Below, in pieces: positions 18,001-21,000 of a stretch of 39,506 nucleotides of DNA. Origin of the DNA: a virus; the UHGV virus genome UHGV-0354001. The stretch is one strand, 5' to 3'. A program made the position numbers. Numbering within the stretch: position 1 is the first letter of the stretch; each line of letters begins with the position of its first letter.

Positions 18001-21000
18001 GTTGTTGCCAGATGTGGCGATTAGTCTTGACCGTACTGAAGGTGCCACGCTGGAGTTTTACGAAGCTGAGGCGAAAAAGCAGGCGAAGCAGTTTTTCATG
18101 GATGTTGCTGCCGGGTTATGTGAAGGGGATGGTCCGTTGCCGGAAAAGCGCCCCGTAATTTTAGAGGCGCAGAATGTGTTGATAACCTACAAAGGAAAGC
18201 TACCGGGAAGAATTACTTGTTCTCTGAAGACTCCACCGGAATCACAACCTTAATTCACTGACCGGAACAGATAAACCTGTCCGTGGGCAGAAACCGATAA
18301 ATCCTGATAAATATCCATGAACGCAAAAATCAGATACGGCCTGTCTGCTGCCGTTCTGGCGCTGATTGGTGCAGGGGCGTCTGCGCCTGACATTCTCGAC
18401 CAGTTTCTGGATGAAAAGGAAGGCAACCACACCACGGCATACCGTGATGGTGCAGGTATCTGGACCATCTGCCGTGGTGCCATCATGGTGGATGGCAAAC
18501 CTGTCGTTCCGGGCATGAAGTTGTCGAAGGAAAAATGCGACCAGGTTAACGCCATTGAGCGTGATAAAGCGCTGGCGTGGGTGGAGAAAAACATCAGAGT
18601 GCCACTGACCGAACCCCAGAAAGCGGGGATCGCGTCATTCTGTCCGTACAACATTGGTCCCGGTAAGTGTTTCCCGTCGACGTTTTACAGACGAATTAAT
18701 ACAGGTGATCGAAAAGGTGCCTGCGAAGCGATTCGCTGGTGGATTAAGGACGGTGGCAGAGACTGCCGTATTCGTTCAAACAACTGTTACGGTCAGGTAT
18801 CCCGTCGTGACCAGGAGAGCGCGCTGGCGTGCTGGGGTATCGACAGATAAGCAGAATATTTTGCTGAAAAATGAGGAATGGCCACGCGGGCGGATAACAC
18901 GAAATCCTGCGAACTGGCGAAACGTAAGTGAATAAAAGTAAAAACCCCGTTTGTTGGCACCAAGCGGGGTTTTGTGTTTCTGACCTTGAGTAAGGCAAGG
19001 GAGAACATGGCGAAGTATAAACGAATTCTGTTGAGGTTGACTATGAAAAACGGCCTTGAACTGAAAGCGCCTGTAATTGATGACATCAGCAGAGCACTGG
19101 CTTTTGCCATTAAGTGGGTGGCGGTCGGTGTTGCTGTGTCCCCGATGCTGTATGGGCTGGCAAAACTGGTCATTGCGTTGAAATCATGAAGGGAGGATTA
19201 AGCATGCCAGACAAACTCATAACGCTGGCGAAGATCCTCTGTGTAATTGTCGGCATTTCATTTTCACTAATGCTGGTTGCTCTTTTTCTTTCCATGGCCT
19301 GGATGATGTTGTCTTCGTCGGGGCTGCTGGGGTGAACATAAACCGAATGCTTTCCGCGTTTATCGTTATTCTGCTGGTGGCCTGTGGTGCGCTGTGGATG
19401 GCAACAGACCATTACCGTGATAACGCGATTACCTACAAAGCGCAGCGCGATAACAAAGCCAGAGAACTGAAGCTGGCGAACGCAACCATTACTGATATGC
19501 AGGTGCGCCAGCGCGATGTTGCTGCGCTCGATGCAAAATACTCGAGGGAATTAGCCGATGCGAGAGCTGAAAATGAAACTCTTCGCGCTGATGTTGCCGC
19601 TGGTCGTAAGCGCCTGCGGATCAACGCCACCTGCCCCGGTACCGTGCGTGAAGCCACCGGCACCTCCGGCGTGGATAATGCAACCGGCCCCCGACTGGCA
19701 GACACCGCTGAACGGGATTATTTCATCCTCAGAGAACGGTTGATGACAATGCAGAAGCAGGTGGAAGGGGCGCAGGAATATATCCGCACTCAGTGTATTA
19801 ACTAGTATTTTTGTTATCCGGAGAATGCATGAAGAAATTACTGGTAACCGTAAAGCCTCTTCAGGGAACAATTCTGTTCCGTATTTTGCAGCGTGGTCGT
19901 GTTCTTGTTGAAGGTTCGTTCAGTGGTAAATGTATGCAATTACACTCCCGGACCTTTCAGGTGAATGCCACGAATGAAGAGCTAACCGTTGAGTGTACGA
20001 TGAATACCGCTAAATGCCGCATGGTATCCGCTGCATTACAGCGAGTGTGTTGAGCGACCTTATTATCCATGCGCGGTATTGTCGCCGTATCCCCGCATTA
20101 ACAGAGACCGCAGCCCGACCGGGATACTCCTCTGCGCGAGTGTGCGGGGATAATCAAAAACGATACACACCGGGGTTTACCGCGTTAACGGAGCGCGGCG
20201 TTGTCCCCTCATAGTCGCCTGTCCGGTGCGATGGTGGAAGAAACCGGACTACATTGAAAATGATAACCATTATCATTTTTGCGGGTCCTCCTGGTGGGGT
20301 GGGCCTGAACACGGGGCGGGCGGCGCGGAAAAAGGCGCATTTTTGTGATTTTATCGTCATCATCATCATAATGGTAACTTATTGTTTTTAATGTGTTTAG
20401 CATTAAAAAGATGATGATTGCGGTTGATTTTTGTTCGACATCTTTATATGGCGGCATTTCTTTACAAAAAAAGAGCCACTTTTGTTCAGCGGTTTATGTG
20501 GAGGGATGTAAATGGACGGCGAGCTGAAAAATATGAAGTTAAATATTAATCAACTGGCAGCCCTTTCAGGTCTGCACCGGCAGACTGTTGCCGCCAGAAT
20601 GGCGGATGTTCCTCTTGCACCAGGCAGTAATGAAAAGAAAAAACTGTATCTCCTGACGGATTTGATTATTTCGTTGCTGGAAAAACCACCGACTTCCGAA
20701 GATGAAGAGATGAACCCACATGATCGGAAGGCATGGTATCAGTCCGAGCGCGAGCGTCTTAAATTTCAGCATGAAACTGTTCAGCTTGTGCCTGTCAGTG
20801 ATGTCAGGCGGTCCTTTTCTGTCGTGGTGAAAGCGATAGTTCAGGTACTGGAAACCTGGCCTGACCGGCTGGAAAGGGACAGAGGGTGGACCGCATCACA
20901 ACTGAATGAAGTACAGATTGTGGTTGATGAGATCCGCGACACACTGGAAAAGGCAGTCATTGACTGTTGTGATGAGGCCGATATGTGAATCAGGTGAACG

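What the first reader, a model, noticed from the sequence alone, without database searches (positions are those of the whole stretch)
18851..19335. Two small hydrophobic ORFs between endolysin and Rz, set off by a terminator
A hairpin terminator (18943-18980) follows the endolysin gene, then two short ORFs (60 aa and a 43-aa single-TM peptide) with good RBSs run straight into Rz. They are not part of the canonical holin-endolysin-spanin set. They could be lysis regulators, a small toxin or membrane peptide, or a superinfection-exclusion factor.
Basis: seen in the sequence. Interest (0 to 1): 0.45.

Follow-up and report, generated by a model that had tools for sequence, protein, structure and literature searches.

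The report
Small membrane-protein genes inside a lysis cassette
Between the cell-wall enzyme gene and the outer-membrane-disruption genes of this E. coli prophage lie two real, conserved but uncharacterised small membrane-protein genes behind a conserved terminator hairpin; they are common (one sits mostly unannotated in Shiga-toxin phages) and probably fine-tune or assist host lysis, but nobody has tested them.

Summary
A terminator hairpin (18941-18973) follows the endolysin gene. ORF A (19007-19189, 60 aa) and ORF B (19204-19335, 43 aa) follow it, each with a Shine-Dalgarno site, and ORF B ends 11 nt before Rz.

Both are genuine genes:
- dN/dS is 0.08-0.26 for ORF A and 0.23-0.49 for ORF B.
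- Both are intact in 65/65 close loci.
- ORF B is full length in 276/276 matching phage records.
- ORF B's Sakai homolog (ECs_1966/XECs191) has weak published ribosome footprints.

Both belong to PHROG families of unknown function and match no Pfam, NCBIfam, PADLOC or Rfam family.

ORF A belongs to an Enterobacterales-wide family. Its members nearly always sit behind the same bidirectional hairpin. They usually lie between an endolysin and Rz or small lipoprotein genes, whatever the holin or endolysin type. ORF B tracks the Stx-phage-type Rz.

The most likely reading is that they are late-operon inner-membrane accessory lysis proteins, made when Q-modified polymerase reads through the terminator. 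A holin-specific antiholin, a SAR releasin and a spanin subunit are disfavoured for ORF A. Cargo roles and antisense-RNA control remain open.

The finding is moderately interesting and uncharacterised rather than strange.

The parts
17683..17898 (+). P21-type (pin)holin gene, context
   Evidence: Pfam Phage_holin_2_1 E 7e-33; phrog_9876/phrog_20 holin
17900..18253 (+). DUF1327 (YdfR-like) gene between holin and endolysin, context
   Evidence: Pfam DUF1327 E 5e-41; same position as ydfR in K-12 Qin
18317..18850 (+). Endolysin (phage lysozyme). Its Gly/Ala-rich N-terminal segment suggests a SAR type; this is inference.
   Evidence: Pfam Phage_lysozyme E 6e-24, phrog_7; N-terminal sequence
18851..18940 (+). 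3' untranslated region of the endolysin gene, shared with Stx phages
   Evidence: The first 155 nt after R are 87-90% identical in more than 170 Stx-phage records. This is the most variable segment among 65 close loci (28% variable sites).
18936..18983 (.). Bidirectional intrinsic-terminator-like hairpin (stem-loop 18941-18973, A-run before, T-rich run after). It is the 5' boundary element of the ORF A cassette.
   Evidence: Terminator scan. 12 consensus pairs, 2 with compensatory changes. Present upstream of ORF A-family genes in E. coli, Salmonella, Klebsiella and Serratia in different genomic contexts.
18974..19006 (+). Conserved spacer carrying the ORF A Shine-Dalgarno site (AAGGGAG 18997-19003) and a small CCTTG/CAAGG stem
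   Evidence: Only 2 of 33 sites vary among 65 loci. Nearly identical in Salmonella, with variation confined to the small loop. The fold pairs SD and AUG but is no more stable than shuffles.
19007..19189 (+). ORF A: 60-aa cationic (+7) protein with a conserved basic N-terminal motif (KYKRILLRLTMKNGLE..AP) and a C-terminal membrane helix. Internal Met13 (19043) has its own SD, so a second product is possible.
   Evidence: phrog_1115 E 4e-41; PGAP WP_001151823.1 hypothetical; dN/dS 0.08-0.26; AF2 helices 2-20 and 22-59, pLDDT 76; hydropathy and charge; family alignments
19014..19043 (-). Hypothetical minus-strand promoter (-35 TAGTCA, 18 nt, -10 TATACT) for a roughly 74-nt antisense RNA ending at the hairpin. 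Candidate only.
   Evidence: One of 4 promoter-like hits in 4 kb against 3.7 expected by chance. The -10 is TATACT or TATAAT in 8 diverse loci. Predicted RNA folds at -21.5 kcal/mol, z -2.9. No expression data.
19204..19335 (+). ORF B: 43-aa single-pass membrane peptide (N-terminal DKLITLAK, then a helix with a G17xxxS21 motif and invariant C13). The strong SD GGGAGG lies 7 nt upstream.
   Evidence: phrog_4906 E 4e-23; dN/dS 0.23-0.49; 276/276 phage records full length; AF2 single helix 2-38, pLDDT 88; invariant columns; homolog ECs_1966 = XECs191 with RIBOseq signal
19347..19805 (+). Rz i-spanin gene (possible alternative GTG start at 19332, overlapping the ORF B stop)
   Evidence: Pfam Phage_lysis E 2e-49, phrog_13; PGAP start
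19558..19743 (+). Rz1 o-spanin lipoprotein gene embedded in Rz
   Evidence: Pfam Rz1 E 2e-21, phrog_3198

Best explanation
ORF A and ORF B are two real genes for small inner-membrane proteins, carried as accessory genes in the late (lysis) operon of a lambdoid E. coli prophage.

**ORF A.** It is a self-contained cassette made of a bidirectional terminator hairpin, a short leader and a gene for a cationic tail-anchored protein. This cassette has spread among phages of Enterobacterales. It most often sits just after the endolysin gene and just before the genes that breach the outer membrane (Rz/Rz1, or small lipoproteins).

**ORF B.** It is a single-pass peptide that travels with the Stx-phage type of Rz.

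**Expression (inferred).** No promoter follows the terminator. The two proteins are therefore made essentially only when Q-modified, terminator-resistant RNA polymerase transcribes the late operon. The terminator acts as a safety lock against leaky expression in the lysogen.

**Action (inferred, not shown).** Once made, they insert in the inner membrane and modulate the envelope-disruption pathway. They do this independently of the particular holin or endolysin, probably at or near the last step (spanin or outer membrane) or by general membrane destabilisation that sharpens lysis timing.

**What is shown.** Gene reality, membrane-protein character, linkage and distribution.
For: **They are genes.**
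- Purifying selection acts in the annotated frames only.
- Neither ORF has a frameshift or stop in 65 close loci.
- ORF B is full length in 276/276 phage records.
- Changes in ORF A's N-terminal codons across genera are synonymous or conservative, and the two E. coli subfamilies differ there by an in-frame 3-nt indel.
- RIBOseq signal exists for the ORF B homolog XECs191/ECs_1966.

**They are membrane proteins.** Hydropathy, charge and AF2 helices agree.

**Late-operon expression.**
- They have the same orientation as the flanking late genes.
- SD sites are invariant in 65 loci.
- Spacing is tight or overlapping.
- No plus-strand promoter-like site lies between terminator and Rz.
- Read-through of terminators by Q-modified polymerase is established lambda biology (my own knowledge).

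**Lysis association.** Of 13 distinct architectures of the ORF A family, 11 place it downstream of an endolysin or directly upstream of Rz or a small lipoprotein:
- P21 holin + lysozyme (window)
- HP1-type holin + lysozyme (L091, L112)
- P21 holin + lysozyme + Ant (L095)
- lambda-type holin + GH19 (L096)
- holin_8/holin_3_7 + M15 peptidase followed by a 60-aa lipoprotein (L098-L105)
- a PG_binding_1-domain protein (presumed endolysin) followed by two small lipoproteins in Serratia (L110)
- a Yersinia remnant that keeps only ORF A-like + Rz (L107)

**ORF B and Rz.**
- ORF B lies immediately upstream of Rz in all four Stx-type loci read (PA2, VT1-Sakai, Sakai Sp10, and the window).
- In three other loci one or two more small ORFs lie between ORF B and Rz.
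- About 276 records carry ORF B, against about 226-plus records with at least 80% identical Rz. Lambda Rz (71% identical) has no such ORF.

**Insert status.** K-12 Qin has rrrQ overlapping rzpQ with no insert, so the ORFs are an addition to a minimal cassette.
Against: - No experiment links either protein to lysis, and no homology to any characterised lysis protein was found.
- Two ORF A-family contexts are not lysis cassettes: a Klebsiella baseplate cluster (L106) and the end of an E. coli prophage after a DUF4376 tail-fibre-type gene (L114-L116). The family is therefore not obligatorily lysis-linked.
- The R-Rz slot also hosts an antirepressor-like gene in Stx phages, so it accepts unrelated cargo.
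- Linkage to Rz could simply reflect where mosaic recombination joints fall. A junction lies at about 19005.
- The cassette already has a complete holin/endolysin/spanin set, so any role is non-essential.
- In myovirus contexts without Q-type antitermination, an efficient upstream terminator would be polar on essential genes. Its plus-strand efficiency is therefore uncertain.
Confidence: 0.45

Rival explanations
1. They are cargo ('moron-like') small membrane proteins whose job is not lysis. Examples would be superinfection exclusion, blocking a host membrane protein, or countering a membrane-based defence. They merely ride in a permissive slot of the late operon.
For: - ORF A-family cassettes also occur after tail-fibre genes at a prophage end (L114-L116) and inside a baseplate cluster (L106). 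These are typical accessory-gene positions.
- The R-Rz slot also carries an antirepressor-like gene in Stx and Salmonella phages.
- The slot holds variable arrays of one to four small membrane ORFs (569R3, PhiR5_1), a pattern often seen for conflict genes.
- Low-level RNA and footprints for the ORF B homolog were seen in uninduced Sakai cultures.
- Small single-pass exclusion morons such as HK97 gp15 are known (my own knowledge).
Against: - No promoter-like site lies between the terminator and the ORFs (spacers inspected).
- The terminator is on the upstream side, which blocks rather than permits lysogen expression.
- No PADLOC match.
- The weak Sakai signal fits spontaneous induction in a subpopulation.
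- 11 of 13 architectures are next to an endolysin, Rz or a small lipoprotein gene.
Confidence: 0.28
2. ORF A is a toxic membrane peptide kept in check by a cis-antisense small RNA, like a type I toxin-antitoxin pair or P22 sar/ant. The RNA would start from a minus-strand promoter inside ORF A codons 3-13, cover the ORF A ribosome-binding site and end at the bidirectional hairpin. The hairpin would then be mainly the antisense RNA's terminator.
For: - A minus-strand promoter-like site lies at 19043-19014.
- Its -10 is TATACT, or a perfect TATAAT, in 8 diverse loci, and a -35-like hexamer sits 16-18 nt upstream.
- In all 8 hairpin-bearing loci examined, the hairpin has a T-rich tail on the minus strand as good as the one on the plus strand.
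- The predicted RNAs are 69-105 nt with 2-3 stem-loops.
- The leader plus ORF A codons 3-18 show no substitution between E. coli and Salmonella, although the rest of the gene has dS of 0.5-0.77.
- The hairpin travels with ORF A in every context, which fits a two-gene module.
Against: - The promoter hit is no more than chance expects (4 found, 3.7 expected).
- The conserved nucleotides also encode the most conserved part of the protein, and synonymous changes do occur there across genera.
- No Rfam family matches.
- There are no expression data.
- ORF A has no promoter of its own, unlike type I toxins.
- Recombination-maintained boundary sequences could explain the identical block.
Confidence: 0.15
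3. The ORFs have no function as proteins. They would be upstream reading frames that only serve translational coupling into Rz, or decaying remnants.
For: - ORF B ends 11 nt before the Rz ATG, and the Rz SD-like GGGG lies in its last codons.
- Some loci carry truncated or frameshifted copies (phiSTEC1589).
- ORF B's dN/dS is only moderately low.
Against: - Amino-acid sequences are conserved, with dN/dS well below 1 in the right frame only.
- In Salmonella, Rz has its own SD after ORF A.
- ORF A-family genes occur with no Rz downstream.
- ORF B has invariant residues and motifs.
Confidence: 0.04

Closest known systems
Phage P2 LysA (membrane protein encoded between endolysin K and the spanin genes lysB/lysC; non-essential lysis-timing factor). 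From my own knowledge.
   Same: It is a late gene in the same slot, between the endolysin and spanin genes. It is an inner-membrane protein and an accessory to a complete holin/endolysin/spanin set.
   Different: LysA is much larger, with several membrane helices. There is no sequence relation (no Pfam or PHROG link). LysA is thought to act on its cognate holin, whereas ORF A occurs with four holin families.
Antiholins (lambda S107, S21 71, T4 RI, P1 LydB). From my own knowledge.
   Same: They are small membrane-associated proteins in lysis cassettes that tune timing. ORF A has two possible starts (Met1 and Met13, each with an SD) that differ by a positively charged extension, which is reminiscent of dual-start holin genes.
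   Different: Antiholins are specific to one holin, and dual-start ones share its gene. ORF A is holin-independent. ORF B's longer start is not conserved.
Disruptin gp28 of phage phiKT (56-aa cationic peptide that breaches the outer membrane instead of spanins; bioRxiv 10.1101/515445)
   Same: ORF A is 60 aa, net charge +7, helical and next to lysis genes. It passes the paper's screening rule (under 80 aa, at least +4). Relatives sit where spanins would be in cassettes with no Rz/Rz1.
   Different: ORF A is much less amphipathic (hydrophobic moment 0.54 against 0.89 for LL-37). It has a hydrophobic C-terminal anchor. In this window it coexists with Rz/Rz1. The two share no homology; the paper reports no homologs for gp28 apart from a near-identical protein in the closely related phage PGT2.
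Releasin gp25 of phage Mu (membrane protein needed to free the SAR endolysin; PMC9239132, seen in the search list but not read)
   Same: It is a small membrane protein of a lysis region with a SAR-type endolysin, outside the canonical three classes.
   Different: The ORF A family also accompanies GH19 and M15 endolysins. Sequence relation was not tested.
Morons of lambdoid phages (Juhala et al. 2000, as cited in PMC4104026), e.g. the HK97 gp15 small membrane exclusion protein (my own knowledge)
   Same: It is an extra gene cassette inserted between genes that are adjacent in relatives (Qin rrrQ/rzpQ). It is flanked by a terminator and encodes a small membrane protein.
   Different: A moron has its own promoter upstream and its terminator downstream. 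Here no promoter was found, and the terminator is upstream.
P22 sar RNA/ant and type I toxin-antitoxin loci such as hok/sok (a sok match lies elsewhere in this window). Mechanisms from my own knowledge.
   Same: The possible layout matches: a small, potentially toxic gene whose ribosome-binding site is covered by a short antisense RNA. That RNA would start inside the coding region and end at a hairpin upstream.
   Different: The antisense RNA here is only predicted. There is no match to Hok, Ldr, Ibs or other families, or to Rfam antitoxin RNAs. ORF A lacks its own promoter.

Membership tests
Holin | Match to a holin family profile | tested here: not met
   Neither ORF has a holin Pfam or PHROG hit at E<=1. 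The real P21-type holin is at 17683-17898.
Holin | Membrane helix or helices followed by a highly charged hydrophilic C-terminal tail | tested here: not met
   ORF A ends ...VIALKS and ORF B ends ...SSSGLLG. Charges are N-terminal.
Holin | Lethal, timed membrane permeabilisation on expression | not testable with these tools
   Needs inducible expression.
Antiholin | Specific pairing with one holin family | tested here: not met
   The ORF A family occurs with holin_2_1, holin_2_3, holin_3_1 and holin_8/holin_3_7. For ORF B alone this is inconclusive, because it was seen only with P21-type holins.
Two-component or unimolecular spanin | i-spanin: N-terminal membrane helix plus a long periplasmic coiled-coil. 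o-/u-spanin: lipoprotein signal with lipobox Cys. | tested here: not met
   ORF A's helix is C-terminal, with 1-3 residues beyond it. ORF B has a 7-residue tail. Neither has a lipobox (ORF B's Cys13 is preceded by K-I-L). PF03245 and PF06085 match the downstream genes instead.
Disruptin (phiKT gp28-like cationic peptide) | Under 80 aa and net charge at least +4 (screening rule in 10.1101/515445) | tested here: met
   ORF A is 60 aa with charge +7. ORF B is +1, so not met for ORF B.
Disruptin (phiKT gp28-like cationic peptide) | Strongly amphipathic helices; present in spanin-less phages; complements an Rz/Rz1 defect | tested here: inconclusive
   Hydrophobic moment is 0.40-0.54 against 0.89 for LL-37. 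The window has Rz/Rz1. Relatives occur in cassettes without Rz. Complementation is not testable here.
Releasin (Mu gp25) | Functional coupling to a SAR endolysin | tested here: not met
   The ORF A family also accompanies GH19 and M15 endolysins. Sequence comparison with gp25 was not done.
Moron | Own sigma-70 promoter upstream of the gene | tested here: not met
   No plus-strand promoter-like site lies between 18974 and 19347. No consistent candidate appears in the spacers of 8 loci.
Moron | Factor-independent terminator downstream of the gene | tested here: not met
   The terminator is upstream (18941-18973). ORF B runs into Rz.
Moron | Insertion between genes that are adjacent in related phages | tested here: met
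   rrrQ and rzpQ overlap in K-12 Qin. The ORF A cassette is found in at least five unrelated neighbourhoods.
Type I toxin-antitoxin | Small hydrophobic toxin belonging to a known family (Hok, Ldr, Ibs, ShoB, TisB and others) | tested here: not met
   No Pfam hit. Size and hydrophobicity alone fit.
Type I toxin-antitoxin | Antisense or divergent small RNA with its own promoter and terminator | tested here: inconclusive
   A promoter-like site and a terminator are correctly placed on the minus strand. The promoter hit is at chance level, there is no Rfam match and there are no expression data.
PHROG families phrog_1115 (ORF A) and phrog_4906 (ORF B) | Profile match over the full length | tested here: met
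   E 3.9e-41 (residues 1-60) and E 4.1e-23 (residues 3-43). Both families are labelled 'unknown function'.

The most novel reading that the evidence does not exclude
The ORF A cassette would be a new class of phage lysis gene with built-in double insulation. A bidirectional terminator would stop unmodified polymerase on the sense strand and also end a sar-like antisense RNA that masks the ORF A ribosome-binding site. The cationic tail-anchored protein would then appear only in the late burst. In the widespread E. coli holin_8/holin_3_7/M15 cassettes and in a Serratia cassette, neither of which has Rz/Rz1, the ORF A-like protein together with the small lipoprotein(s) immediately downstream would form a previously unrecognised outer-membrane-disruption system. 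ORF B would be a helper of the Stx-phage Rz in the inner membrane.
Probability: 0.13. Interest if true: 0.75.

Novelty: new member of a known kind. Interest (0 to 1): 0.42.

Why it matters
**Prevalence.** These genes are very common. The exact segment is in 18% of complete E. coli genomes. The short ORF A-like form is listed in 4369 blocks of the assembly index. ORF B sits in 276 phage records, about 180 of them named Stx-converting phages (including VT1-Sakai and Min27), and is mostly unannotated.

**Position.** They lie in the operon that controls release of phage, and in Stx phages release of toxin. Nothing is known about what they do.

**If they tune lysis.** If they tune lysis timing or help breach the outer membrane, they would add a component to a pathway regarded as well understood. 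They would also bear on Shiga-toxin release.

**The spanin gap.** The recurring pairing of an ORF A-like protein with small lipoproteins in cassettes lacking Rz/Rz1 offers a concrete candidate for the missing-spanin problem. About 15% of phages of Gram-negative hosts have no recognisable spanin (10.1101/515445).

**If they are only cargo.** The 'terminator-first' cassette would still be a tidy example of how toxic small genes are insulated inside antiterminated operons.

Tried and rejected
- **Dual-start antiholin idea for ORF B.** Rejected. The upstream ATG at 19186 is GTG in 58/65 loci. The N-terminal extensions in Stx phages (MEWWL, MGWL) are unrelated and have no consistent charge.
- **Programmed frameshift at G AAA AAC in ORF A.** Dropped. 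The heptamer is absent from the RWW subfamily.
- **Plus-strand structure sequestering SD and AUG as a regulatory element.** The fold exists but is no more stable than shuffles (z +0.5).
- **ORF A as a classical amphipathic antimicrobial-type peptide.** The hydrophobic moment is too low.
- **'Nucleotide island' as proof of an overlapping element.** Weakened. Klebsiella and Serratia homologs do carry synonymous changes there, so protein constraint plus recombination may suffice.
- **Known sRNAs.** Rfam finds nothing in 18700-19500 apart from a sub-threshold rimP-leader hit on the hairpin. The EHEC anti-sRNAs and Pas sRNAs lie elsewhere, downstream of pR' and next to the esterase and holin genes.
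- **Searches that found nothing.**
  - Peptide strings in papers
  - Lysis-cassette small-protein literature
  - ECs1966/XECs191 in main texts
  - NCBIfam and PADLOC
  - A genome-contig scan with the ORF A alignment
- **Technical failures.** tblastn with the RWW form was largely masked by the low-complexity filter.
- **Papers checked and found irrelevant.** BSPM4 ORF52 and the UPEC small proteome.
- **Not run.** Fold searches of the AF2 models, because single helices give meaningless matches.
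Full report
**What is there**

The window is a lambdoid E. coli prophage with an Stx-phage-like late region but no stx genes. It carries:
- three tRNAs, a convergent STnc100/AsxR sRNA pair and a 656-aa esterase-like ORF;
- a P21-type holin (17683-17898), a DUF1327 gene (17900-18253) and a phage lysozyme (18317-18850);
- Rz (19347-19805) with embedded Rz1 (19558-19743), and terminase genes.

The finding lies between the lysozyme gene and Rz. A terminator-like stem-loop sits at 18941-18973, with an A-run before it and a T-rich run after it. ORF A runs from 19007 to 19189 (60 aa) and ORF B from 19204 to 19335 (43 aa). Each has a Shine-Dalgarno site, and ORF B ends 11 nt before the Rz ATG.

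**Are they genes?**

Yes. NCBI's pipeline annotates both as hypothetical proteins. The 485-nt segment is at least 80% covered in 990 of 5426 complete E. coli genomes. Both match PHROG families of unknown function: phrog_1115 (E 4e-41) and phrog_4906 (E 4e-23).

Among 65 close loci, neither ORF carries a frameshift or a stop. ORF A is far less variable (7.7% of sites) than the untranslated stretch after the lysozyme gene (28%), and 9 of its 14 variable sites are third codon positions.

Against diverged Salmonella copies, ORF A has dS of 0.5-0.77 and dN/dS of 0.08-0.26. The other two frames give 0.73 and 7.4. Fisher p is 2e-8 to 3e-4.

ORF B has dN/dS of 0.23-0.49 at dS up to 0.74, with p of 5e-4 to 8e-3. 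tblastn finds it full length in 276 of 276 matching phage records.

In E. coli O157 Sakai, the ORF B homolog is ECs_1966 in prophage Sp10, between the antirepressor gene and Rz. The same peptide is XECs191 in the RIBOseq study of Hücker et al. (PMC5597208). That study reports, in LB, a transcriptome RPKM of 30.0, a translatome RPKM of 12.6, a ribosome coverage value of 0.43 and coverage of 0.55. It classed the ORF as 'real' and as inner membrane with one helix. This is weak evidence from uninduced cultures, but it is translation evidence.

**What the proteins look like**

*ORF B.* It is hydrophobic throughout (GRAVY 1.65, net charge +1). AF2 gives one helix over residues 2-38 at pLDDT 88. The N-terminal half ([20 protein letters not shown]) is nearly invariant. 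It includes Cys13 and a G17xxxS21 small-residue motif, while the C-terminal half varies. The positive-inside rule suggests N-in, C-out with a 7-residue periplasmic tail; this is inference.

*ORF A.* It is cationic (+7). Its N-terminal signature (K/N)YKRILLRLTMKNGLE..AP is conserved, and its C-terminal half is hydrophobic. AF2 gives helices 2-20 and 22-59 at pLDDT 76, lower in the first 30 residues. An internal Met13 has its own GAGG-N6-ATG site, and many databases call relatives from that Met, so two products are possible. The N-terminal extension is nevertheless translated in evolution. Differences across genera and subfamilies there are synonymous or conservative, and include an in-frame 3-nt indel.

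No Pfam, NCBIfam or PADLOC family matches either protein.

**Distribution and neighbourhoods**

*ORF B.* It is confined to Escherichia and Shigella. In the four Stx-type loci read (PA2, VT1-Sakai, Sakai Sp10 and the window) it lies immediately upstream of Rz, usually overlapping the stop codon of the antirepressor-like gene. It is mostly unannotated in the phage records. In three other loci one or two further small ORFs lie between it and Rz. Its record count (276) is close to that of the Rz clade at least about 79% identical to the window's. Lambda Rz, at 71% identity, has nothing upstream.

*ORF A.* Its family is wider. It covers Escherichia, Salmonella, Klebsiella, Serratia, Enterobacter and Yersinia, but an exhaustive profile search returns only 40 cluster representatives. 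Two C-terminal types exist, ending ...ALKS or ...RWW. A third small family (WKFLLVWSIPFLW..AIKG) resembles ORF A's C-terminus by eye. Some phages carry three or four such small ORFs in a row before Rz.

I read 13 distinct architectures. In 11 of them the ORF A-family gene lies after an endolysin (or an antirepressor gene) or directly before Rz or a small lipoprotein gene. This holds regardless of holin family (holin_2_1, 2_3, 3_1, 8/3_7) and endolysin type (lysozyme, GH19, M15, PG_binding_1-domain protein). A Yersinia prophage remnant keeps only the ORF A-like gene plus Rz.

Two architectures are not lysis cassettes: a Klebsiella baseplate cluster, and the end of an E. coli prophage after a DUF4376 gene. 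K-12 Qin, with overlapping rrrQ and rzpQ, shows the cassette without any insert.

**The terminator belongs to ORF A**

An AAAACCCCG...CGGGGTTTT hairpin lies 30-70 nt upstream of the ORF A-family gene in every context examined except the truncated Yersinia copy. This includes the non-lysis contexts and the Salmonella locus where an antirepressor gene, not the endolysin gene, is the upstream neighbour.

The inner stem differs between lineages, with compensatory changes (UG/AU/UA/GC at one pair and UA/CG at another). In all eight hairpin-bearing loci compared, the tail is T-rich on both strands.

So the unit that moves is 'bidirectional terminator - leader - small membrane-protein gene'. A mosaic joint lies at about 19005. 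Stx phages keep the same 3' UTR after R but use a different hairpin.

**How it most likely works**

*Shown.*
- The genes are in the late operon's orientation.
- Their ribosome-binding sites are invariant.
- They are tightly packed with Rz.
- No plus-strand promoter-like site lies between the terminator and Rz.

*Inferred.* Q-modified polymerase reads through terminators in lambdoid late operons (established knowledge). The proteins would therefore be made essentially only in the late burst, with the terminator insulating them in the lysogen. They then sit in the inner membrane.

*What the neighbourhood data exclude for ORF A.*
- A holin-specific antiholin: ORF A occurs with four holin families.
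- A SAR-endolysin releasin: ORF A occurs with GH19 and M15 partners.
- A spanin subunit: there is no periplasmic domain and no lipobox.

*What remains.* The constant neighbours are the genes that breach the outer membrane. I therefore favour an accessory role in the envelope-disruption pathway, at or near its last step, or a generic membrane effect that sharpens timing. I give this confidence 0.45.

ORF A passes the published screening rule for 'disruptins' (under 80 aa, at least +4; 10.1101/515445). However, it is much less amphipathic than LL-37 and coexists with spanins here, so I do not file it there.

**Rivals**

1. *Non-lysis cargo such as exclusion factors (0.28).* This is supported by the two tail-region contexts and by the slot's tolerance of antirepressor genes. 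It is weakened by the missing promoter and the upstream terminator.
2. *An antisense-controlled toxic peptide (0.15).*
   - For: a minus-strand promoter-like site lies at 19043-19014, with a -10 of TATACT or TATAAT in eight diverse loci. The hairpin would end a 69-105-nt RNA covering the ORF A ribosome-binding site. The leader plus codons 3-18 are identical between E. coli and Salmonella although the rest of the gene is diverged.
   - Against: the promoter hit is at chance level, the same bases encode the most conserved part of the protein, and there are no expression data.
3. *Non-functional upstream frames (0.04).* This is contradicted by the selection data.

**What is known**

I found no paper on the function of either protein. 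The closest precedents are:
- P2 LysA (same slot, different protein);
- antiholins;
- the phiKT disruptin;
- the Mu releasin;
- lambdoid morons;
- P22 sar/ant or hok/sok-type antisense control.

The existence of the ORFs is already recorded (RefSeq hypothetical proteins, PHROGs, XECs191). What is new here is:
- the demonstration of selection;
- the terminator-first cassette;
- its spread across Enterobacterales;
- its recurrent position before outer-membrane-disruption genes.

**Verdict**

The feature is real, common and uncharacterised, and it is an ordinary kind of thing: small accessory membrane proteins in a phage late operon. It carries one interesting lead, the possible link to outer-membrane disruption in cassettes that lack spanins. 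Interest 0.42.

Noticed in passing
L098 2441-2798 (also L099-L105; L007 1980-2337): A very common E. coli prophage lysis cassette (holin_8, holin_3_7, M15_4 peptidase) has no Rz/Rz1. In the spanin position it has the hairpin, an ORF A-like 37-57-aa ...RWW protein and a 60-aa lipoprotein (lipobox LVGC, phrog_7528, unknown function). The short protein is listed in 4369 index blocks.
   Followed up: partly
L110 1526-2960 (Serratia quinivorans): A PG_binding_1-domain protein (presumed endolysin) is followed by the same hairpin, an ORF A-like 41-aa gene and two small Cys-rich lipoprotein genes (56 and 54 aa, lipoboxes LTGC and IAAC). These lie next to phage sheath and tube genes. It is another cassette without a recognisable spanin.
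   Followed up: partly
L005 612-1176; L010 1727-2216: Some E. coli phages (569R3, PhiR5_1) carry three or four small membrane ORFs in a row before Rz: a WKFLLVW..AIKG peptide, ORF B, a C-terminal-half copy of ORF A and a 28-aa ...RWW peptide. The order of ORF A-like and ORF B is swapped relative to the window.
   Followed up: partly
L091 3470-3503; L008 1964-1997: In the Salmonella and GER2 forms, an 8-codon mini-ORF (ATG TGT AGG GAG GTG TAT TCC CTG TGA) with its own SD ends on the GTG start of ORF A (GTGA overlap). The window form lacks these ~26 nt, which puts an ATG directly after the SD.
   Followed up: no
window 17900-18253: A DUF1327 (YdfR-like) gene of unknown function sits between the holin and endolysin genes, as in K-12 Qin and Sakai Sp10. 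It is another non-canonical member of this cassette.
   Followed up: no
window 19829-20053: A 74-aa ORF directly after Rz matches phrog_2571 (unknown function, E 5e-27). It has no Pfam hit and no obvious membrane segment.
   Followed up: no
window 14254-16966: This is an Stx-phage-like region downstream of Q but without stx genes. It has three tRNAs, a convergent STnc100 (+) / AsxR (-) sRNA pair at 14579-14843, and then a 656-aa esterase-like ORF. A 2026 preprint (10.64898/2026.05.13.724894) places Pas sRNAs between such sialic-acid esterase genes and the holin gene. The 16967-17682 gap was not examined for them.
   Followed up: no
window 9358-9538 and 3177-3228: There are Rfam matches to sok antitoxin RNA (61 bits) and DicF RNA (61 bits), so this prophage carries a hok/sok-type locus and a DicF gene.
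   Followed up: no
window 35312-35345: A second hairpin of the same AAAACCCCG...CGGGGTTT type lies in a 340-nt gap between two tail genes (34422-35102 and 35446-39138). No ORF A-like gene follows it.
   Followed up: partly
window 18881-18918: A predicted stem-loop (GGCGGAT..ATCC core) lies in the endolysin 3' UTR. It is partly conserved in Salmonella loci with a stronger stem (GGCGGAT/ATCCGCC). Together with the terminator it could mark a 3'-UTR-derived RNA.
   Followed up: no
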